Of a stretch of DNA of 64,000 nt, positions 1,948-25,522 are shown in pieces; positions within the stretch are counted from its first letter, which is position 1, and the number at the start of each line of letters is the position of its first letter. The stretch is from assembly GCF_022846255.1 (NCBI RefSeq), contig NZ_AP025682.1; one strand, written 5' to 3'. The notes beneath the pieces were generated by a model, which did not search any database, was not told where the DNA came from, and saw only the letters and a list, made by a program, of their open reading frames with translations. Origin of the DNA: Escherichia coli (GTDB taxonomy: Bacteria; Pseudomonadota; Gammaproteobacteria; Enterobacterales; Enterobacteriaceae). The translations under genes and the position numbers were made by a program.

Positions 1948-2283
1948 TTATATAATCGCCATCACTTTCCAGGCGAGCCCATAGGCCAGCGCACTAAGCA
2001 GTGTTGGGATGATAATGCTGCGTGTTTTATAGAAACTGGCACCCAGTACCGCGAAGCCGACCAGTGTGGGCACGAAACGGCGTGTATCGTGCATCACTTC
2101 TGGTGCGGTAGAGACAACCAGCAGAGCGCATATCGAGGCGATGCCAATGGTGTCGAGCAAAATACCTACCGCGCCACGTTTGGTTGGGCGGGCATTACCC
2201 ACACGCAGGCGCAGCGGCAGATAGCGGAAGCAATAATTCGCCGCGCCAACCAGTAACCCAAGCAGCAGAACCTCATAGCTCAT
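1948..2283 (-). CDS. ygaH: L-valine exporter small subunit YgaH (AzlD-like, 111 aa)
   Basis: Translation recognised; overlaps the ygaZ stop by 11 nt, as expected for the ygaZH pair. Confidence 0.9.
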
Positions 2284-3010
2284 CGGGCGCTCCTTGCCAG
2301 AATGCCTGGATTAACGCAGTGAGGCAGCCACAGACAATGCCTGCCAGAATGGCGACGGGAATAGAAAATAGCGTTACGCCTGCAAGGGCACCAACTAACG
2401 CTGCGGTAACGCAAAGAGATTGTTTGCGCTGGAAAGAGGCGAGCAGGAAACTCATAAAGAGTGCCGGAAGCATAAAACCTAATGCTGCTTCAACGGCGGG
2501 ATAACCTTGCAGCAAGCCGCTGCCGGAGAATGCCCCTATTACCGTACCAAATACCCACGATGACCATGAACTGAAGGCAATGCCGATCATCCAGTTTTCG
2601 CTCCAGCGGCGATTATTGCGTACCAGTTTTGCGGTTGCGGCGGCAAAAACCTCATCCGTCAGGCCAAACGCCCACAGGGCGGTTTTCGATTTTTGCAGAC
2701 GCTGAATAATACGGCTACGCAGTGACGGGCCATACAAAACATGGCGAACATCCATTGCCATGACGGTCAGTGCAGCAACCCACAAACTACTCCCGGCTGC
2801 CAGCATCGCGGTAATGACGAACTGGCTCGCGCCTGCATAAATGATGCAGGAGAAAAAAACGCTTTCGAGAGGAGAGAATCCCAGACGGGTCGCATTCAGA
2901 CCGAACGCAAAGGCCACCGGAATATAACTAATAACAATCGGTAAACTGTCTTTGCATCCTTCCATGAAGGTCGCCGAACCAGGAGCAGGCTGTGGAGTAG
3001 GGCTTTCCAT
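2273..3010 (-). CDS. ygaZ: L-valine exporter large subunit YgaZ (AzlC family, 245 aa)
   Basis: Translation recognised; polytopic membrane protein upstream of ygaH. Confidence 0.9.
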
Positions 3011-3133
3011 AGAGTGTACGCTTAACGATTGTTAATATTATAAATAGACTGAATGAATATCTTAACCTTATCAGACTGATGGGCTTCTTAACACCCTTAT
3101 AAGTGTAAAGCCACGAAAACGGTTGCTGATTGC

Positions 3134-4318
3134 TTAATTTGCGGCTTCCTGACGATGAAAACCTCGCCACCAGACCAGTAAGTTAACCAGGGCAATCGTC
3201 GCGCCAGCCAGACACACGCCAGCCCAACCGCCATGTTGCCAGGCTGAGGCTGAAATTAGCGAACCAGCGGCACCGCCAATAAAGTAGCTGGTCATGTAAC
3301 CTGCGGTCAGGCGATTACGCGCATCAGGGTGTATTCGATAAATTACCGTCTGGTTAGTGATATGCACGCCCTGCACGGTGAGGTCCAGCACCAGGATGCC
3401 GATAATCAGCGCCAGTACGGAAGTGTGACCAAACCAGATTGCCAGCCATGAAAGTAACAGCAGCAGCAGACCGAAAGTTGTGGTGTGGTGCGATTTGCCC
3501 TTATCGGCAAAACCGCCCGCCGGACGAGCGCCCAACGCTCCGGCAGCTCCCGCAAGCCCAAACAGACCAATTACACCATCGCTGTAGTTAAAAGGTGGAG
3601 CGGCAAGCAAAAAGGCCATTGAGGTCCAGAGAATGCTGAAGTTGGCAAAGGTCAGGCAGCCCAGCAACGCGCGGGTGCGCAGGATTTTATCGCTGATAAA
3701 CATGCTGAAAACAGAACCTAGCAACTGTGGGTAGTTGAGGTGGGTTTCTGATTTCATTTGTGGCAGACCACGCCATAACGCCAGCGCCATCAGTGCCATT
3801 AATACCGAAGCGACCCAAAAGACAGTTCGCCAGCCACCGAGACTCGCCAGCAATCCGGCAACGGTCCGTGCCAGCAAGATCCCCAACAGCAGCCCGCTCA
3901 TAATGGTGCCGACCACTTTGCCGCGTTTGTCCGGTGAAGCCAGCGTCGCTGCCAGCGGAACCAGAATTTGTGCCACGACTGAGAATAAACCGGTTAATGC
4001 CGTACCGAGGAGCATCATCGCCAGCGACTGACTGCTGGCAGTGATTAACATGCCGCCTGCTGCCAGTAAGGTCATCGAGACAATCAGGCGGCGGCGTTCA
4101 AACATATCACCGAGGGGAACAAGAAACAGCAGACCTGCGGCATAGCCCAACTGCGCGGCGGTAACAATAAAGCCTGCCGAACTGGCGGAAAGGGAAAAGT
4201 TACGCGCGATGGTGTCGAGCAATGGCTGGGCGTAATAGTTACTGGCTACCGCCAGACCGGTGGCGATAGACATCAGCACGATCAGCGCCGGGCTAATCTC
4301 ATGATTAGGTTTAGTCAT
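3134..4318 (-). CDS. ygaY: MFS transporter YgaY, intact 394-aa reading frame
   Basis: Uninterrupted ORF of 394 aa with multiple hydrophobic segments; position between ygaZ and proX matches ygaY. Confidence 0.8.
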   Translation of the reverse strand: MTKPNHEISPALIVLMSIATGLAVASNYYAQPLLDTIARNFSLSASSAGFIVTAAQLGYAAGLLFLVPLGDMFERRRLIVSMTLLAAGGMLITASSQSLAMMLLGTALTGLFSVVAQILVPLAATLASPDKRGKVVGTIMSGLLLGILLARTVAGLLASLGGWRTVFWVASVLMALMALALWRGLPQMKSETHLNYPQLLGSVFSMFISDKILRTRALLGCLTFANFSILWTSMAFLLAAPPFNYSDGVIGLFGLAGAAGALGARPAGGFADKGKSHHTTTFGLLLLLLSWLAIWFGHTSVLALIIGILVLDLTVQGVHITNQTVIYRIHPDARNRLTAGYMTSYFIGGAAGSLISASAWQHGGWAGVCLAGATIALVNLLVWWRGFHRQEAAN

Positions 4319-6623: not shown

Positions 6624-7818
6624 TATTTACCCCCTCACGATCTAAAGCGCGCAGCAGCATTCCTTTCGAAATGATGCCGACATACTGTTGGTCCTCGTCG
6701 ACCACGGGCACCGCACAGGGGGCCTGTCCGACATGAGAGAGCAACTCGCTAAGAGGCGTTTGTGCATCGACCGCTAACGGCGCATCAATCAGCGCCGCAT
6801 CAAGACCTTGCTGCTGCGTTAACGCGGTTTTAAGCGAATCGATAGACACTGCGCCGACAAACTTATTACCGCGTTCGATGACGTAGCCATATTCGCGATC
6901 TTCATCCTGCAATAATTTCAATGCCGAACGCGGGCCGAAGCCGGGGGTTTTACGGATTAAGCCGTTCGGTGTCCGGCGAGCAATATCTTTCGCACTGAAT
7001 ACCTGACTAATATCGACGCCACGGAAGAAGGTACGGACATAATCATTCGCCGGATTATTGAGAATTTCATCCGGTGTGCCGACCTGTACCACTTCACCAT
7101 TTTGCATAATGGCAATTCGGTCGCCAATACGCATAGCTTCATCGAGATCGTGGGAAATAAAGACAATTGTGCGCTGATGTTTCGCCTGTAATTTTACCAG
7201 CTCATCCTGCATCTCGGTGCGAATTAATGGATCGAGTGCTGAGAAGGCTTCGTCCATTAATAATATATCCGGATTAATCGCTAACGCGCGGGCTAATCCC
7301 ACACGTTGACGCATCCCGCCAGAGAGTTCATCCGGGTAGCTGTGGGCATAATTTTCCAGCCCGACCTGACGCAGTGCATCAAGGGCTTTTTCCCGGCGTT
7401 CTTCGGCATTAATTCCGGCCAATTCCATACCGAATGCAGTATTGTCCAGCACGGTCATATGCGGCATTAAGGCAAAGGACTGGAAGACCATCGCAATCTT
7501 TTTTCTGCGCACCTCACGGAGTTCGGCGTCGGATATTTTGGCAATATCCACACCATCAATCAGCACTTGCCCGCGGGTGGGTTCAATCAGGCGATTGAGA
7601 AGGCGTACCATTGTGGATTTACCCGAACCGGATAATCCCATGATGACAAATATCTCGCCTTCTTCAATGGCCAGACTGGCGTCTTTTACGCCAAGCGATA
7701 GCCCAGTTTTTTCCAGAATTTGTTCTTTTGAAAGTCCTTGTTCGATATATTTGAAAGCTCGCTGTGGATGCTCACCAAATATTTTATAAAGATTTTTAAT
7801 TTCTAATTTAATTGCCAT
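6616..7818 (-). CDS. proV: Glycine betaine/proline ABC transporter ATPase ProV (400 aa)
   Basis: Walker A motif [12 protein letters not shown] signature LSGGMRQR and C-terminal CBS domains; translation recognised. Confidence 0.95.
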
Positions 7819-7886
7819 GCAATAGAAAGATTCCTGTTATTTGTTTATGTCGATACATTACCCAATGGAAATAGTCACTTTTTTCT

Positions 7887-7914
7887 ACCCTAACATACTG
7901 AGAATCTGAGGCAA
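7887..7914 (-). promoter_or_regulatory. proU (proVWX) sigma70 promoter: -35 TTGCCT, 16-bp spacer, -10 TAGGGT
   Basis: Minus strand reads TTGCCTCAGATTCTCAGTATGTTAGGGT about 70 bp upstream of the proV ATG; matches my recollection of the osmoregulated proU promoter. Confidence 0.6.
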
Positions 7915-8174
7915 CCCCTGATGGCAAATGTGGCATGAATATTGATGTGAGCAAATCGCCGGAATTTCCCATGATATAAGGGCTGAGAGCAAATCGAGAA
8001 AAGTTGATATTTTTTGTCAAAGATAGCGAAAAAACGCCTGAATATTGTGGTTTCAGGCGAATAATGCAACAGAGTGTCAGTGTAGATCACCACAAAATAT
8101 TTGCGTGATAAAAAGCTATTTGGTGGGAATTATTTCCCTGCTGCGGGTAGTGATATTTTTGAAAAATAACACCC

Positions 8175-9143
<969 letters not shown>

Positions 9144-13022: not shown

Positions 13023-13472
13023 TCAGGCTTTTACCTGCTGGTAACGGCTGACTTTAAACAGTCGGCGGCAATAATCGAGGAAGTAGCCATAAACCGCCCC
13101 CATCAACATCGAAACAACGATGTTTGAACTGACCGCCGCCATAATCTGATGCCAGTCTGCGCCCACCACTAACAAGATCGCCACATACACCGGTGACTGG
13201 AACGTCACATAAGCCAGGATATCCGCCAGATTTTTTATCCAGCCCGACGGGCTAACTTTGCGTGCCGCGCGCATAAACAGATCGCGGTACATACCGTATG
13301 GCCATGCAATTAAGATGTTCACCGGAATCGCTACCAATCTGGAATAAAAAGACTGTTCGAAGCTCATTCCGGAGAGGAAAACTTCAATACACATGTTCAC
13401 GACAGAACAGTAAACAACCATCGCGAACGTATCTGCAACTGCATGACGCAAGCGTGACTGCGGTGAGAACAT
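13023..13472 (-). CDS. alaE: L-alanine exporter AlaE (YgaW, 149 aa)
   Basis: Translation recognised; small polytopic membrane protein. Confidence 0.9.
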
Positions 13473-14139
13473 GCTAATGCTCCTTAATAAAAGCGTAATG
13501 GGATGTTAATGGAGATGAAAGCAGTGGATCTCATTGCCATCTGCATTTTCGCATAGCGTATATCGCTGGCTATGACTAATCAATTAGTGAAAAATTTTTA
13601 TTTAATCTGTTTTTGTAGATAAAATATTCCGTAACGGCGCGTTTTTTGTACATTGTGGATTTTTACATGCCGGTATGATTTATTTTTAATTAAATCAATT
13701 GGATATGTGTTTACCTTTATTTTCACTCATGAAGGTTTGGGGGGGAGGTAACGCTATAAGCGTAGAGAATTCGGTGTATGTAGTGATCGGGTCATTTTCA
13801 GCATTTTTTATGCCAGATAATGTACATTGACAGCAGAAAGCACCAGTGAGTGATGTTTTCTTTTATTCTGTTGAGTTGCATTTTTATTCACTTTGGTTTT
13901 GTCAGGCTTGCGGAATTAGCGAGCAGAGAGCGCCGCTCTGTTCACCAATAACCTAAATTACTCATCAAAATGGCTAATATATAATCTTGAAATTATTCTG
14001 AGAGTTTCAGAAAATAACAGCTGAAATAATCTCGTGCAGGACTGTAAATAGATTAAATTTTGTGGAAATATAATAAGTGATCGCTTACACTACGCGACGA
14101 AATACTTTTTTGTTTTGGCGTTAAAAGGTTTTCTTTATT

Positions 14140-14544
14140 ATGTCCGTAATGTTACAAAGTTTAAATAACATTCGCACCCTCCGTGCGATGGCTCGCGAAT
14201 TCTCCATTGACGTTCTTGAAGAAATGCTCGAAAAATTCAGGGTTGTCACTAAAGAAAGACGTGAAGAAGAAGAACAACAGCAGCGTGAACTGGCAGAGCG
14301 CCAGGAAAAAATTAGCACCTGGCTGGAGCTGATGAAAGCTGACGGAATTAACCCGGAAGAGTTATTGGGTGATAGCTCTGCTGCGGCACCACGCGCTGGT
14401 AAAAAACGCCAGCCGCGTCCGGCGAAATATAAATTCATCGATGTTAACGGTGAAACTAAAACCTGGACCGGTCAGGGCCGTACACCGAAGCCAATCGCTC
14501 AGGCGCTGGCAGAAGGTAAATCTCTCGACGATTTCCTGATCTAA
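14140..14544 (+). CDS. stpA: H-NS paralogue StpA (134 aa)
   Basis: Translation recognised; preceded by a roughly 660-bp AT-rich regulatory region. Confidence 0.95.
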
Positions 14545-19913: not shown

Positions 19914-21362
19914 TTAAAGACCGATGCACATATATTTGATTTCTAAGTAATCTTCGATGCCATACTTCGAACCTTCACGACCCAGACCCGAGGCTTTAAT
20001 GCCGCCAAACGGGGCCACTTCATTGGAAATAATGCCGGTGTTGATGCCGATGATGCCGTACTCCAGTGCTTCGCCCACGCGGAAGACGCGGCTTAAATCA
20101 CGGGCGTAGAAATAGGCTGCAAGGCCAAATTCGGTGTCATTGGCTTGCGCAATCACATCGGCTTCATCTTTAAAACGGAACAGCGGGGCGAGGGGGCCAA
20201 ACGTCTCTTCTTTCGACACTTTGGCGTTAGCCGGAACGTCCACCAGAATGGTCGGCTGGAAGAAGTTACCGCCGCGTTCATGTGCTTTACCGCCGCAAAC
20301 CACGCGCGCGCCTTTCTCCAGCGCATCGGCAATATGCTCTTCCACTTTTGCTACCGCTTTTTCATCGATCAGCGGCCCGATGGTGACGCCTTTCTCCAGC
20401 CCGTTGCCGATGTGCAGTTTGCTCACCGCCTGCTGCAATTTTTCGGCAAAGCGGTCATACACGCCGTTCTGCACATACAGGCGGTTGGCGCAGACGCAGG
20501 TTTGCCCGGCGTTACGGAATTTCGAGGCCAGCGCGCCTTCCACGGCTTTATCGAGATCGGCATCGTCAAAGACAATAAACGGTGCGTTGCCGCCCAGCTC
20601 CAGCGACACTTTTTTGATGTCTTTCGCGCACTGTTCCATTAACTGACGGCCAATTTCGGTCGAGCCGGTAAACGACAGCTTGCGCACCAGCGGGTTGCTG
20701 GTCAGTTCGTTACCGACCGCGCCCGCCGAACCGGTGACTACGTTAAACACGCCAGCCGGAACGCCCGCGCGAATCGCCAGTTCTGCCAGCGCCAGCGCAG
20801 AGAACGGCGTCTGACTGGCGGGCTTCAGCACCATCGTGCAGCCTGCCGCCAGCGCCGGACCGGCTTTACGGGTAATCATCGCCGCCGGGAAGTTCCACGG
20901 CGTGATAGCCGCGGTGACGCCAATCGGCTGCTTGATAACAATCAGGCGTTTATCGGCCTGATGACCGGGAATGGTGTCGCCATAAATACGTTTGCCTTCT
21001 TCAGCAAACCACTCAATAAAGGAAGCGGCGTAGCTGATTTCGCCTTTCGCTTCAGTCAATGGTTTGCCCTGTTCGAGGGTCATCAGGCGCGCTAAATCGT
21101 CCTGATGCTCCATCATTAAATTGAACCAGTTGCGCAGAATGTTGGCGCGTTCTTTGGCAGTGAGCGCACGCCAGGCGGGCAGGGCGCGGTTGGCGGCGTC
21201 GATAGCGGCGCGGGTTTCATCAGCGCCCATTTTCGGCACGCTACCCAGCTTGTCGCCGTTCGCCGGATTGGTGACGTCGATGACCTCGCCATTGTTGGCG
21301 TCCAGCCATTCCCCGTTAATCAACGCCTGCTGGCGGAATAAGTTACTGTCGTTAAGTTTCAT
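19914..21362 (-). CDS. gabD: Succinate-semialdehyde dehydrogenase GabD (482 aa)
   Basis: Aldehyde dehydrogenase family translation recognised. Confidence 0.95.
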   Translation of the reverse strand: MKLNDSNLFRQQALINGEWLDANNGEVIDVTNPANGDKLGSVPKMGADETRAAIDAANRALPAWRALTAKERANILRNWFNLMMEHQDDLARLMTLEQGKPLTEAKGEISYAASFIEWFAEEGKRIYGDTIPGHQADKRLIVIKQPIGVTAAITPWNFPAAMITRKAGPALAAGCTMVLKPASQTPFSALALAELAIRAGVPAGVFNVVTGSAGAVGNELTSNPLVRKLSFTGSTEIGRQLMEQCAKDIKKVSLELGGNAPFIVFDDADLDKAVEGALASKFRNAGQTCVCANRLYVQNGVYDRFAEKLQQAVSKLHIGNGLEKGVTIGPLIDEKAVAKVEEHIADALEKGARVVCGGKAHERGGNFFQPTILVDVPANAKVSKEETFGPLAPLFRFKDEADVIAQANDTEFGLAAYFYARDLSRVFRVGEALEYGIIGINTGIISNEVAPFGGIKASGLGREGSKYGIEDYLEIKYMCIGL

Positions 21363-21384
21363 CGCTACATCCTGTTTTCAAAGG

Positions 21385-22653
21385 TTATTGATTAAATGCG
21401 GCGTGTAAGGCATCCACACTACGTGCCGCTCGCAGCGTGCGTCCGGGGTTACTCTGGCTTGCCAACAGCGTTTGTACCTTGCTGACAATATGCGCACCAA
21501 TAGGAATTGCTGATGTCGCTGCCGGGGAGGGCGCATTACAGGTGTGGATCGTGCGCGGGGTGGTGACAAACAGAAAATCGTCAATCAGCTTGCCGTCCGG
21601 CGATACTGCCTGCGCCCGCACACCGGGGGGCCTGGGCTGGAGATCGCTTAACGAAAGCCGGGGACAATACTTTTGCACCAGCCGCAGATAGCCGCTTTTG
21701 CACAGCGAGTTTTTCATCTCGCCCAGTCCTGAGCGTAGATGGTTTTGCAGCACCCGGCGAATCCCCGACGAGCCTAAAATCTCCAGCGTGTCACTAAATG
21801 AGAAGTCGCGCTTGCGATAGCCTTCGCGTTTGAAAGCCAGCACCGCGTTTGGCCCGACGGTCACGCTGCCGTCGATCATGCGGGTGAGATGCACGCCCAA
21901 AAACGGCATTGCCGGGTCGGGAATGGGGTAAATCAGGTGGTTAACAATCTGGTTATGCTCCGGCGCAAGGCGGAAATACTCGCCACGGAACGGGCAGATA
22001 ATAAAGCCCGGTTCGAGGCCGAGCATTTTCACCAGCCGGTCAGCCATCAGCCCGGAACAGCTAATCAGCGTCGATGCTTCATATTCACCGCCCTGACGGG
22101 TACGTATCACCACGCCGTTTTTATGCTCACTAAGGGCGCTGACTTCGGCGTTATAAATAATCTCGCCGCCTCTGGCCTGGAAGATTTTTGCCATCGCCGC
22201 CGTCACTTCGCGATAGCTGACAATGCCGCTGGACGGCACAAAAATGCCGCCAAGCCCGGTGATATTCGGTTCGCGCTCGCGCAGTTCCTCGGCGTTTAAC
22301 CACTCGCGCTCGATACCGTTCGCCGCCGTGCGTTCCCACAACGCGCGCATCCGTTCCATTTCGAGTTCAGAGGTGGCGACCAGCATCTTGCCGCAGTTGT
22401 CATAGCGAATGCCGTTTTGATCGCAAAAGGCTTTGGTGGCGCGGTTTCCCGCCAGGCAAAACTGCGCCTTCAGGCTGCCGGGCGTGTAATAGACCCCAGC
22501 ATGGATCACGCCGCTGTTGTGGCCCGTCTGGTGACAGGCCGGGCCGGACTCTTTTTCCAGCAACGCAATGCGGGCATCCGGATAAACATCAATCAGTTGC
22601 ATGGCGGTCGACATGCCGATGATGCCGCCGCCAATAATCACAAAATCATACAT
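21385..22653 (-). CDS. lhgO: L-2-hydroxyglutarate dehydrogenase/oxidase LhgO (YgaF, 422 aa)
   Basis: FAD-binding GxGxxG N-terminus (MYDFVIIGGGIIG); start set 22 codons inside the ORF-track start, with AAGGA 9 nt upstream. Confidence 0.9.
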   Translation of the reverse strand: MYDFVIIGGGIIGMSTAMQLIDVYPDARIALLEKESGPACHQTGHNSGVIHAGVYYTPGSLKAQFCLAGNRATKAFCDQNGIRYDNCGKMLVATSELEMERMRALWERTAANGIEREWLNAEELREREPNITGLGGIFVPSSGIVSYREVTAAMAKIFQARGGEIIYNAEVSALSEHKNGVVIRTRQGGEYEASTLISCSGLMADRLVKMLGLEPGFIICPFRGEYFRLAPEHNQIVNHLIYPIPDPAMPFLGVHLTRMIDGSVTVGPNAVLAFKREGYRKRDFSFSDTLEILGSSGIRRVLQNHLRSGLGEMKNSLCKSGYLRLVQKYCPRLSLSDLQPRPPGVRAQAVSPDGKLIDDFLFVTTPRTIHTCNAPSPAATSAIPIGAHIVSKVQTLLASQSNPGRTLRAARSVDALHAAFNQ

Positions 22654-22672
22654 CCGCTCAATTCCTTTGCGC

Positions 22673-23749
<1,077 letters not shown>

Positions 23750-23768
23750 TTACATATTGTTTTCTTAT

Positions 23769-23785
23769 TGTGATCAAAAACAACA
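23769..23785. promoter_or_regulatory. Putative cAMP-CRP site in the csiD promoter
   Basis: TGTGATCAAAAACAACA (one good TGTGA/TCACA half-site) about 120-135 bp upstream of the csiD ATG; csiD is known to be CRP- and sigmaS-dependent. Confidence 0.3.
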
Positions 23786-24178
23786 AATTAATAACAAATA
23801 ATGTGAGGGATAAGAATTGGGTTGAAAGGAAATGAATAATTAAAACAATATATTAAGTGTGCTTATACTCTTTTTCGAACTGGTGGCATTTGTTTAAATG
23901 CTATTTAAACTGCTTTTCCAGAGTTCAACTTACTGAGTTCCGTGTCGACTAATGTGAGTAAGATCAATCGCATCCAACCTATGTTACTTGATGGAATCGA
24001 TAACAATATTAATGAATATACAGATTCCGGGAAGGCTGGCTATGGGGGCAAATTATTCTCTTTCTGGCAACAGGTAAATAACAGTGACCATTTGTCGAGA
24101 AGCTGATACTAAGCTGAGGGATACTGTATATGTCTGGACTGTAATTGGATGAATTCTATTCAGGGCGGGTCAGGACCA

Positions 24179-24204
24179 ATAAAAAAGCCCGCATCAGCGG
24201 GCTT
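24179..24204 (-). terminator. ssrA intrinsic terminator
   Basis: Minus strand AAAGCCCGC-TGAT-GCGGGCTTTTTTATT, about 130 nt downstream of the tmRNA 3' CCA. Confidence 0.7.
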
Positions 24205-24332
24205 TAATGTCATAGGGAGTCGCGACTCCGTTGCGTATCCTTTTTTGTCTCCTCACCGTCTGGTCGGTGTCCTGCTGAGACTTATAACTTCCTGTTTTTG
24301 TTGGTGTAGTCCTTACACCGTCCAATCATGAT

Positions 24333-24695
24333 TGGTGGAGCTGGCGGGAGTTGAACCCGCGTCCGAAATTCCTACATCCTCGGTACTACATGCTTAGTCA
24401 GTCTTTACATTCGCTTGCCAGCTGCGGACGGACACGCCACTAACAAACTAGCCTGATTAAGTTTTAACGCTTCAACCCCAGGCAGGGCTTCCACGCGATC
24501 TCTTTTGGGTTTGACCTCTCTTGATCCCCGTCCTAAGAGCGGAGGCTAGGGAGAGAGGGCTCTAAGCAGGTTATTAAGCTGCTAAAGCGTAGTTTTCGTC
24601 GTTTGCGACTATTTTTTGCGGCTTTTTACGAGGCCAACCGCCCCTCGGCATGCACCTTGGGTTTCGCAAATCCCGTCGAATCCAGAATCAGCCCC
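24333..24695 (-). ncRNA. ssrA: tmRNA (SsrA, 363 nt)
   Basis: Minus strand runs GGGGCUGAUUCUGGAUUCGACGGG ... GGUUCAACUCCCGCCAGCUCCACCA; tag reading frame 24574-24606 encodes ANDENYALAA. Confidence 0.97.
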
Positions 24696-24908
24696 AATGT
24701 GTAACGGTAAGTATACCAGATTTATGAGCAGCATGACTAGCCCAAAACGCGTTATCATCCTGGAATTAGCGCCTGCATAGTATGATTTTTTTCGATTAAG
24801 CAATGGGATGGCTACATCTGTGTCAGATTTGACAGTCGATAAGATGTTCATTCGCGCCACCGGATAGGGAGGCGCGGTGAGGATTTGATTAGTATCGCTT
24901 ATATAGGT

Positions 24909-25391
24909 TTAACGATGGGCGTTTTTCATGATACGCGCTTTATCCACCTGCCATTCGCGTTCTTTGATATCTGAACGTTTATCGTGCTGTTTTTTACCTT
25001 TGGCGACGCCGATTTTCACTTTGCACCAGGCATTTTTCCAGTACAGGGAGAGCGCCACTACGGTATAGCCTTCTCGATTGACGCGACCGTACAATGAGTC
25101 CAGTTCGCGCTGGTTGAGAAGTAACTTGCGGGTACGGGTAGGATCGCACACCACATGCGTGGAGGCCACAGCCATTGGCGTGATGTTAGCGCCAAACAGA
25201 AATGCCTCTCCGTCACGCAGAAGGACGTAGCTGTCGCTGATATTGGCTTTTCCTGCACGCAGGGATTTAACCTCCCAGCCTTGCAGGGCAAGTCCCGCCT
25301 CGAACTCTTCTTCGATAAAGTATTCGTGCCGGGCGCGCTTGTTAAGCGCGATGGTCGCTGAACCAGGTTTATGTGCTTTTTTCTTCGTCAT
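24909..25391 (-). CDS. smpB: tmRNA-binding protein SmpB (160 aa)
   Basis: Translation recognised; immediately upstream of ssrA. Confidence 0.95.
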
Positions 25392-25522
25392 AAGCGTCGT
25401 GAATCATCGGTAATCTGAAATCGAAAACACCCCATATCAATCCTGCGGGGGACAAGGCTCTATCTTAGCATGAACCCGATGTTACCCAGCGCCGGGATAG
25501 CGTTTTTTTTACAGCAGGATAA

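What the first reader, a model, noticed from the sequence alone, without database searches (positions are those of the whole stretch)
23800..24178. Unassigned AT-rich spacer between the csiD promoter and the ssrA terminator, containing a ribosome-binding-site-preceded 11-codon mini-ORF
After the putative csiD promoter and CRP site (about 23651-23790) comes roughly 380 bp of strongly AT-rich sequence with no ORF of 60 aa or more and no recognisable RNA gene. It contains a mini-ORF at 24042-24077 (ATG GGG GCA AAT TAT TCT CTT TCT GGC AAC AGG TAA, MGANYSLSGNR) preceded by GGGAAGG at about 6-nt spacing. This is exactly where islands insert in other strains, so it could be a junction remnant, an H-NS-bound spacer, or hold a small RNA or micro-protein. 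Coding evidence from sequence alone is weak.
Basis: inference. Interest (0 to 1): 0.2.

Follow-up and report, generated by a model that had tools for sequence, protein, structure and literature searches.

The report
Ordinary spacer between ssrA and csiD
This AT-rich stretch is an old, weakly constrained piece of non-coding DNA between the tmRNA gene terminator and the csiD promoter, and its 11-codon mini-ORF is no better than chance and is not conserved as a reading frame in related Escherichia, so the finding is ordinary.

Summary
The region has 37.7% GC against 51% for the window, and it holds no ORF of 60 aa or more and no known RNA family. The mini-ORF at 24042-24077 follows GGGAAGG with 6-nt spacing.

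The region has three modules:
- 23651-23848 is the csiD regulatory region, shared by nearly all E. coli.
- 23849-24175 is a spacer found in only 1103 of 5426 complete E. coli genomes (IHE3034, Nissle 1917, 536 and ST131, which are B2-type) and in four other Escherichia lineages. At least two of those lineages keep the csiD-spacer-ssrA order.
- 24176-24332 is the ssrA 3' flank with its terminator. Most E. coli have it, and so do phages that integrate at ssrA.

K-12 carries a 10.6-kb ypjA..ygaQ block in place of the spacer.

The spacer is the least conserved of the three modules and carries many indels. Its divergence is close to that of csiD fourfold sites. It shows no RNA covariation on either strand and no phage, plasmid or protein homology.

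The mini-ORF is frameshifted in two lineages and has lost its stop in a third. The in-frame lineages differ almost only by nonsynonymous changes. In shuffled sequence, 26-68% of trials give an equivalent ORF.

One item remains open: an invariant 22-nt block at 23948-23969 with a CRP/FNR-like TGTGA-N6-TCA core.

The parts
23651..23848 (-). csiD (glaH) upstream regulatory region. It is shared by essentially all E. coli and includes the TGTGATCAAAAACAAC CRP-type box at about 23770-23785.
   Evidence: 5389 of 5426 genomes match. K-12-type genomes match only query positions 1-198, at about 89% identity. Columns 1-150 are almost invariant across Escherichia lineages. Regulation of csiD by cAMP-CRP, Lrp, H-NS and CsiR is taken from PMC6265302.
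23849..24175 (.). Lineage-restricted non-coding spacer. It occurs in B2-type E. coli and four other Escherichia lineages, and K-12-type genomes have ypjA..ygaQ in its place.
   Evidence: Found in 1103 of 5426 genomes at 95-100% identity, never annotated. Homologues lie in L005, L007, L009 and L094-96. Substitution identities are 0.924, 0.852 and 0.804, with 25-44 gap columns.
23948..23969 (.). Invariant 22-nt block ACTAATGTGAGTAAGATCAATC with a TGTGA-N6-TCA core. It is a candidate CRP/FNR-family site or a chance run.
   Evidence: This is the longest invariant run across 5 lineages, with shuffle P=0.002 (P=0.005 with 4 lineages). It holds the only TGTGANNNNNNTCA match in the 64-kb window. An IS3 element splits it in one isolate.
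24029..24035 (+). Shine-Dalgarno-like GGGAAGG.
   Evidence: The duplex with the anti-SD is -6.5 kcal/mol. 26% of shuffles reach this strength.
24042..24077 (+). 11-codon mini-ORF (MGANYSLSGNR), judged a chance ORF.
   Evidence: Frame and stop are not conserved, and the changes are nonsynonymous-dominated. The window's exact allele is present in only 10 of 976 genomes matched.
24184..24205 (-). Intrinsic terminator hairpin AAAGCCCGC-TGAT-GCGGGCTTT followed by TTTATT, closing the ssrA transcription unit.
   Evidence: It is conserved in E1V33, E. whittamii and E2748 and is carried by phage LLS next to its tmRNA fragment.
24176..24332 (-). ssrA 3' trailer plus terminator module.
   Evidence: Found in 4205 of 5426 genomes. 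In K-12 it lies beyond CP4-57. Homologues occur in the ssrA-integrating phages LLS, Ayreon and phiNP and in phage-plasmids.
24333..24695 (-). ssrA (tmRNA) gene.
   Evidence: ARAGORN. Rfam RF00023, 295.8 bits.

Best explanation
23849-24175 is ancestral Escherichia intergenic DNA that encodes no product of its own. It separates the intrinsic terminator of the ssrA (tmRNA) transcription unit from the sigma-S/cAMP-CRP-dependent csiD promoter, which is transcribed in the same direction.

Shown here: the spacer drifts at close to the neutral rate and picks up small slippage deletions and G-run length changes. It has been kept in B2-type E. coli and several other Escherichia lineages. In other E. coli phylogroups a 10.6-kb ypjA..ygaQ block occupies its place. 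The SD-preceded 11-codon ORF is a chance ORF.

Inferred, not shown: any function is passive. The spacer would insulate csiD from the highly transcribed ssrA gene, and it would extend the AT-rich tract upstream of a promoter reported to be modulated by H-NS and Lrp.
For: Three-module structure from population BLAST.

The csiD-spacer-trailer-ssrA order is kept in Escherichia sp. E1V33, E. whittamii and the E2748 group. That makes the short layout the likely ancestral one. In K-12, ypjA..ygaQ lies between the trailer and the csiD promoter.

In every comparison the spacer is the least conserved intergenic module. Substitution identities are:
- spacer: 0.924, 0.852, 0.804
- csiD promoter: 0.980, 0.914, 0.939
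- trailer: 0.927, 0.941
The spacer also has 25-44 gap columns. Its identity is close to that of csiD fourfold sites, 0.868, 0.803 and 0.779.

The B2-specific 12-bp and 11-bp deletions lie between short direct repeats (CATTTGTT, GAGTT).

The mini-ORF has frameshifts, a lost stop and about 6 nonsynonymous changes to 1 synonymous. Its chance frequency in shuffles is 26-68%.

Other negatives:
- No Rfam family.
- Fold z-scores of -1.2 and -1.0.
- RNAalifold covariation terms are positive, with 2 and 0 compensatory pairs.
- No Pfam hit.
- The 54-aa ORF matches only 5 short Escherichia ORFs among 5.8 billion protein clusters.
- No phage or plasmid homology left of 24175.
Against: Substitution divergence is somewhat lower than at csiD fourfold sites (7.6% against 13.2% for E1V33). 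This could reflect weak constraint, although the flanks have mosaic histories that blur the neutral baseline.

One 22-nt block is invariant in all lineages (P about 0.002) and carries a CRP/FNR-like core.

The ATG and the SD-like motif are themselves conserved in all lineages.

No expression, ribosome-profiling or ChIP data could be consulted. Only five or six independent lineages exist, so the conservation tests have limited power.
Confidence: 0.76

Rival explanations
1. The spacer contains a lineage-specific cis-regulatory site. The invariant block 23948-23969 would be a distal CRP/FNR-family operator (TGTGA-GTAAGA-TCAAT) that modulates the cAMP-CRP-dependent csiD promoter in genomes that keep the spacer.
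For: The 22-nt run is invariant across five lineages whose surrounding sequence is 8-20% diverged (shuffle P=0.002). It holds the only TGTGANNNNNNTCA match in the whole 64-kb window. It lies upstream of a promoter known to need cAMP-CRP (PMC6265302).
Against: The right half-site is TCAAT rather than TCACA, and the motif match was noticed after the fact. The site lies about 183 bp from the proximal CRP-type box, and that distance changes by 11-24 bp among lineages, so helical phasing is not kept. K-12 runs CRP-dependent csiD expression without this sequence. An IS3 element splits the block in a blood isolate.
Confidence: 0.1
2. The mini-ORF 24042-24077 is translated into an 11-residue micro-protein, or acts as a translated leader.
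For: The SD-like motif, spacing and ATG are present and conserved in all lineages. The ORF is intact in all eight B2-type sequences examined, and SCPM-O-B-8794 keeps the same frame and length.
Against: The G-run directly after the ATG has 4, 5 or 6 G in different lineages, which shifts the frame in two of them. The stop is lost in the E2748 group. In-frame lineages differ by about 6 nonsynonymous changes to 1 synonymous. 26-68% of shuffles give an equivalent ORF. There is no downstream gene on the + strand for a leader to regulate, since only antisense ssrA lies there. There is no conserved promoter.
Confidence: 0.03
3. The spacer encodes a small RNA on one strand. One example would be a + strand RNA that ends at the bidirectional hairpin 24184-24205.
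For: Weak sigma-70-like matches on the + strand at 23822-23849 and 23840-23869. The hairpin could act in both directions. Several conserved blocks exist, such as 24126-24147.
Against: No Rfam match. Fold z-scores are -1.2 and -1.0 with the terminator included. Covariation terms are positive, with 2 and 0 compensatory pairs. The -10 hexamers of every predicted promoter are destroyed in E. whittamii and SCPM-O-B-8794. Four promoter-like sites were found against 2.3 +/- 1.4 expected. On the + strand the hairpin is followed by only TTTAATG.
Confidence: 0.05
4. The spacer is a decayed junction remnant of an integrated element or of a former gene that once lay between ssrA and csiD.
For: The locus is a hot spot. 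Prophages sit at ssrA in AR_0017, AH19K002 and an ST131 strain. Different blocks abut the spacer in K-12 and in SCPM-O-B-8794. The region is AT-rich.
Against: No nucleotide or translated homology to 50,697 phage or 72,556 plasmid records left of 24175. No longer protein homologue and no Pfam hit. No ssrA-derived direct repeat in the spacer. The same spacer in the same synteny occurs in several Escherichia species, so any such event would predate their split.
Confidence: 0.06

Closest known systems
Terminator-to-promoter intergenic spacers between co-directional transcription units in enterobacteria
   Same: The spacer lies between a strong intrinsic terminator (ssrA) and the next promoter (csiD). 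It is AT-rich, unannotated, single-copy, evolves near the synonymous rate and has frequent small indels.
   Different: It is restricted to one E. coli phylogroup and some sister species, because other phylogroups carry a 10.6-kb block at this position.
The csiD (glaH) promoter region of E. coli K-12 (sigma-S dependent, cAMP-CRP activated, modulated by H-NS and Lrp, repressed by CsiR)
   Same: The first 198 bp upstream of csiD, with the TGTGA box, are shared (89% identity to K-12). The finding's left edge, 23800-23848, belongs to this region.
   Different: The sequence beyond 23848 has no counterpart in K-12, so none of the K-12 promoter work covers it. The extra TGTGA-N6-TCA block is specific to genomes that hold the spacer.
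Validated E. coli small proteins and leader peptides of 10-50 residues
   Same: The ORF has an SD-like motif at suitable spacing, an ATG start and a short length.
   Different: The reading frame is not conserved and there is no synonymous bias. No promoter is evident, there is no downstream cistron, and the ORF does not exceed chance.
attL/attR junctions of ssrA-integrated prophages and islands (CP4-57 type)
   Same: The spacer is adjacent to the ssrA integration hot spot. The neighbouring trailer module (24176-24332) is the sequence that such phages carry beside attP.
   Different: The spacer itself has no att-type repeat, no integrase fragment and no homology to phages or plasmids. Insertions occur to the right of it, inside the 3' end of ssrA.

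Membership tests
Small protein-coding gene (sORF / micro-protein) | Reading frame and stop conserved among orthologous loci | tested here: not met
   There is a -1 G frameshift in E1V33 and a +1 G frameshift in E. whittamii. In the E2748 group TAA has become TTA and the ORF runs on for more than 59 codons.
Small protein-coding gene (sORF / micro-protein) | Substitutions biased towards synonymous changes | tested here: not met
   About 6 nonsynonymous changes to 1 synonymous between the in-frame lineages B2, E2748 and SCPM-O-B-8794. Within B2 the counts are 2 synonymous and 1 nonsynonymous, which is too few to weigh.
Small protein-coding gene (sORF / micro-protein) | Start codon with a ribosome-binding site, more than chance would give | tested here: not met
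   The motif is present with a duplex of -6.5 kcal/mol. However, 26% of shuffles have an equal or better SD-ATG ORF, and 68% have one at -4 kcal/mol or better.
Small protein-coding gene (sORF / micro-protein) | Ribosome occupancy or detectable product | not testable with these tools
   No Ribo-seq or proteomic data for B2 strains could be accessed. Literature searches found none for this locus.
Small regulatory RNA gene | Match to a described RNA family | tested here: not met
   An Rfam E-value scan of 23000-25500 returned only tmRNA plus a terminator-like sub-threshold hit.
Small regulatory RNA gene | Conserved secondary structure with compensatory changes | tested here: not met
   RNAalifold covariation terms are +2.26 (+ strand) and +1.11 (- strand), with 2 and 0 compensatory pairs. 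Single-sequence z-scores are -1.18 and -1.04.
Small regulatory RNA gene | Conserved promoter and its own terminator | tested here: not met
   The predicted -10 hexamers are not conserved in the outgroups. The only terminator is the ssrA hairpin.
CRP/FNR-family binding site | Palindromic TGTGA-N6-TCACA (CRP) or TTGAT-N4-ATCAA (FNR) core | tested here: inconclusive
   The sequence TGTGA-GTAAGA-TCAAT has a perfect left half and matches 3 of 5 positions in the right half for CRP. It is the only TGTGA-N6-TCA in the window, where 1.86 are expected per 64 kb. No position weight matrix was available.
CRP/FNR-family binding site | Conservation above the surrounding sequence | tested here: met
   The 22-nt run is invariant, with shuffle P=0.002.
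CRP/FNR-family binding site | Fixed, helically phased position relative to a promoter, and protein binding | tested here: not met
   The distance to the proximal box differs by 11-24 bp among lineages. Binding itself is not testable here.
Integrative-element junction remnant (att site or decayed prophage) | Direct repeat of the ssrA 3' end, integrase fragment, or homology to mobile elements | tested here: not met
   No ssrA-derived repeat in the spacer. No phage or plasmid match left of 24175. No protein homologue longer than 71 aa.
H-NS-bound AT-rich tract | AT content well above the genome average | tested here: met
   GC is 37.7% against 51.0%, in the lowest 1.7% of windows. The minimum for the whole window starts at 23707.
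H-NS-bound AT-rich tract | H-NS occupancy (ChIP) or H-NS-dependent expression | not testable with these tools
   Only K-12 literature reports an H-NS effect on csiD (PMC6265302), and K-12 lacks this spacer.
Type I toxin-antitoxin locus | Conserved small hydrophobic ORF with an overlapping antisense RNA | tested here: not met
   None of the ORFs of 20-54 aa on either strand is hydrophobic-helix-like or kept in frame across the indels.

The most novel reading that the evidence does not exclude
The invariant 22-nt block (23948-23969) would be a functional operator for a CRP/FNR-family or other regulator, present only in genomes that keep the ancestral spacer. In that case B2/ExPEC-type E. coli and sister Escherichia species would wire the csiD-lhgO-gabDTP glutarate/lysine-catabolism operon differently from K-12. 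A less likely version is that a lineage-specific small transcript starts or is targeted there.
Probability: 0.1. Interest if true: 0.35.

Novelty: not a real feature. Interest (0 to 1): 0.08.

Why it matters
It matters little. The result removes a candidate micro-protein or sRNA from the list and shows why it fails: frameshifts and a lost stop in sister lineages, no covariation, and a chance-level ORF.

It also fixes the anatomy of a well-known variable locus. The ssrA flank-plus-terminator module, which ssrA phages carry too, ends at about 24175. The universally shared csiD regulatory region ends at 23848. What lies between is either a 327-bp ancestral spacer (B2-type) or a 10.6-kb ypjA..ygaQ block (K-12-type).

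Only the conserved 22-nt block would deserve a cheap experiment, and only for a group already studying csiD regulation in ExPEC strains.

Tried and rejected
- Rfam at permissive E-value: only tmRNA.
- Pfam on six small ORFs: nothing meaningful.
- Search of 5.8 billion protein clusters with the 54-aa ORF: only 5 equally short Escherichia ORFs, so no ancestral gene is detectable.
- blastn (distant mode) and tblastn against phages and plasmids: all hits lie in the trailer at 24175 or beyond, none in the spacer.
- Repeat search: only short two-copy matches.
- Metagenome scan with a 24-mer pattern taken from the non-B2 lineages (the window differs by one base, TTTTCC for TTTTTC): two contigs, one B2-like and one SCPM-like, so no new lineage.
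- Exact look-up of the ORFs: the 31-aa and 32-aa ORFs appear only as 'Caudoviricetes MAG hypothetical proteins'. I read these as host flank of ssrA prophage contigs, not as evidence for genes.
- Literature searches for ssrA-csiD intergenic features, UPEC TSS or sRNA maps, and Nissle Ribo-seq: nothing on this locus.
- Promoter readings of the invariant block on either strand: the hexamers are poor, so I rejected them by inspection.
- IHF consensus in the block: poor match, rejected by inspection.

Full report
**Context.** The window is an Escherichia coli chromosome segment. All the following genes are on the - strand:
- gabD (19914-21362), lhgO (about 21385-22719) and csiD/glaH (22673-23650)
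- the tmRNA gene ssrA at 24333-24695 (ARAGORN; Rfam RF00023 at 295.8 bits)
- smpB (24909-25391)

The finding therefore lies between two co-directional transcription units, downstream of ssrA and upstream of csiD.

**Observation.**
- The ATG is at 24042, ten more sense codons follow, and the TAA ends at 24077.
- GGGAAGG is at 24029-24035, six bases before the ATG.
- GC content of 23800-24178 is 37.7% against 51.0% for the window, in the lowest 1.7% of equally long windows.
- The really AT-rich part is the csiD-proximal third.
- The largest ORF inside the region is 54 aa.
- No tRNA, tmRNA or Rfam family lies in it.
- A 9-bp-stem terminator followed by TTTATT sits at 24205-24184 on the - strand.

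**Anatomy from comparison.** BLAST against 5426 complete E. coli genomes splits the csiD-ssrA interval into three modules.
- *Module 1, 23651-23848.* Present in 5389 genomes. K-12-type genomes match only this part, at about 89% identity. It is the csiD regulatory region. The published regulators are sigma-S, cAMP-CRP, Lrp, H-NS and CsiR (PMC6265302).
- *Module 2, 23849-24180.* Found in only 1103 genomes, at 95-100% identity and without any annotation. The named strains (IHE3034, Nissle 1917, 536, ST131) are phylogroup B2 to my knowledge.
- *Module 3, 24181-24332.* Found in 4205 genomes. In K-12 it lies about 20 kb from ssrA, beyond the CP4-57 prophage, and the ypjA stop codon is 10 bp from it.

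Phages that integrate at ssrA (LLS, Ayreon, phiNP) and several phage-plasmids carry a homologue of 24175-24332. In phage LLS it lies directly beside an annotated 'tmRNA pseudogene' and attP. Module 3 is therefore the 3' flank and terminator of ssrA, and its edge at about 24175 marks the true right end of the spacer.

In K-12 the trailer and the csiD promoter are separated by about 10.6 kb (ypjA, pseudogenes, a tRNA-Ile gene, ygaQ) instead of the 327-bp spacer.

**Where islands insert.** In AR_0017, whose spacer is identical to the window's, a prophage (integrase, CI) follows the trailer after a 45-nt duplicate of the ssrA 3' end. AH19K002 and an ST131 strain show the same layout. Integration is thus into ssrA, to the right of the finding, not into the spacer.

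**Origin.** I fetched csiD loci from one genome per species and searched them with the modules.
- Spacer homologues exist only in Escherichia: Escherichia sp. E1V33 (L005), E. whittamii (L007), and a divergent 'E. coli' SCPM-O-B-8794 (L009).
- A protein search led to a fourth lineage, the Escherichia sp. E2748 group (L094-L096).
- E1V33, E. whittamii and E2748 keep the order csiD-spacer-trailer-ssrA.
- The short layout is therefore most simply ancestral, and the K-12-type block is a later replacement.
- In SCPM-O-B-8794 a fimbrial-adhesin-like gene with its own terminator abuts the spacer.
- A metagenome scan added no new lineage.

**Constraint.** Identities to the three outgroups E1V33, E. 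whittamii and SCPM-O-B-8794 are shown below.

| Segment | E1V33 | E. whittamii | SCPM-O-B-8794 |
|---|---|---|---|
| Spacer (substitutions only) | 0.924 | 0.852 | 0.804 |
| csiD promoter | 0.980 | 0.914 | 0.939 |
| ssrA trailer | 0.927 | 0.941 | not homologous |
| csiD fourfold sites | 0.868 | 0.803 | 0.779 |

The spacer also has 25-44 gap columns. It is the least conserved part of the interval and is close to, though somewhat above, the synonymous-site identity. The baseline is imperfect because the flanks have mosaic histories. B2-type sequences carry 12-bp and 11-bp deletions between short direct repeats, which is typical slippage in unconstrained DNA.

**Coding test.** The run of G that follows the ATG has 5 G in B2 and SCPM-O-B-8794, 4 in E1V33 and 6 in E. 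whittamii. The predicted peptides are:
- B2: MGANYSLSGN(R/G)
- SCPM-O-B-8794: MGASFSISGNL
- E1V33: MGQIFLFLATGK
- E. whittamii: MGGKFFYFWQRVNDSYYF
- E2748 group: the stop TAA has become TTA, so the frame runs on through the terminator and is called as a 96-aa product

The in-frame lineages differ by about six nonsynonymous changes and one synonymous change. The same indels break the 54-aa ORF.

Within E. coli the window's own 64-nt allele occurs in only 10 of 976 genomes matched. The eight B2-type sequences examined all keep the ORF, but they differ at too few sites to be informative.

Shuffled versions of the region contain an SD-preceded ATG ORF of 10-60 codons in 68% of trials, and one with an equally strong SD in 26%.

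Gene callers have occasionally called ORFs here. The 54-aa ORF appears as 'conserved hypothetical'. The 31-aa and 32-aa ORFs appear in viral MAG annotations, which I read as host flank of ssrA prophages. None has a Pfam domain or a longer relative.

**RNA test.**
- No Rfam family matches.
- Folding z-scores are -1.18 (+) and -1.04 (-), even with the terminator included.
- Consensus folding of six sequences gives positive covariation terms, with 2 of 73 and 0 of 69 pairs compensatory.
- Four promoter-like sites were found where 2.3 +/- 1.4 are expected, and their -10 hexamers are lost in the outgroups.

**Mobile-element test.**
- No phage, plasmid or translated match lies left of 24175.
- The spacer has no ssrA-derived repeat.

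**The one open item.** A 22-nt run, ACTAATGTGAGTAAGATCAATC (23948-23969), is invariant in all lineages. It is longer than expected from shuffling the invariant columns (P=0.005 with four lineages; P=0.002 with five). It contains the only TGTGA-N6-TCA of the 64-kb window, that is, a perfect CRP left half-site and a TCAAT right half, upstream of a CRP-dependent promoter.

Several points argue against a role:
- I noticed the motif after the fact.
- Its distance to the proximal box varies by 11-24 bp among lineages.
- K-12 does without it.
- An IS3 element with an AAGATC duplication splits it in one blood isolate.

I give a regulatory role about 10%.

**Verdict.** The region is an ancestral, weakly constrained terminator-to-promoter spacer that one E. 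coli phylogroup and some sister species have kept. The mini-ORF is a chance ORF. Interest is low.

Noticed in passing
window 24176-24332; L093 (phage LLS) 2501-2698: The ssrA 3' trailer plus terminator is a portable module. The ssrA-integrating phages LLS, Ayreon and phiNP and several phage-plasmids carry an 81-92% identical copy. In phage LLS, the one inspected, it lies directly beside the tmRNA 3' fragment and attP, so integration would give ssrA a matching flank and terminator. In K-12 the host copy sits beyond CP4-57, and the ypjA stop is 10 bp from it.
   Followed up: partly
window 19914-23848 compared with L083 (K-12), L005, L007: csiD, lhgO and gabD of this B2-type window are 94-97% identical to K-12. 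That is no closer than to other Escherichia species (E1V33 95.4-97.5%), and the csiD promoter is 98% identical to E1V33 but only 89% to K-12. smpB on the other side of the spacer is only 91% identical to those species. The ancestry around the ssrA hot spot looks mosaic.
   Followed up: partly
L086 (E. coli AH19K002) 2171-3500, equivalent to window 23960-23965: An IS3-family element with an AAGATC target duplication is inserted inside the invariant 22-nt block of the spacer in a human blood isolate.
   Followed up: yes
window 23737-23835 and 23857-23952 (+): The 32-aa and 31-aa spacer ORFs exist verbatim in NCBI nr as 'MAG TPA: hypothetical protein [Caudoviricetes sp.]'. The likely cause is that viral MAG contigs of ssrA prophages include host flank, which is an annotation artefact.
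   Followed up: no
window 24149-24331 (+): A 60-aa ORF antisense to the ssrA trailer and terminator is annotated as hypothetical protein ECP_2621 in E. coli 536 and is seen on more than 1000 contigs. It is absent from all the RefSeq PGAP tables seen here and has no Pfam hit. It is probably spurious.
   Followed up: partly
L009 239-1288 and L085 1453-2166: In 'E. coli' SCPM-O-B-8794 and a matching metagenome contig, a 349-aa secreted protein that looks like a fimbrial adhesin, with its own terminator, abuts the spacer where the ssrA trailer lies in other lineages. This marks a second breakpoint at about 24170.
   Followed up: no
window 7630-8204 and 13325-14353: These are two other stretches of the window with GC as low as the finding (37.7% or less in 379-bp windows).
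   Followed up: no
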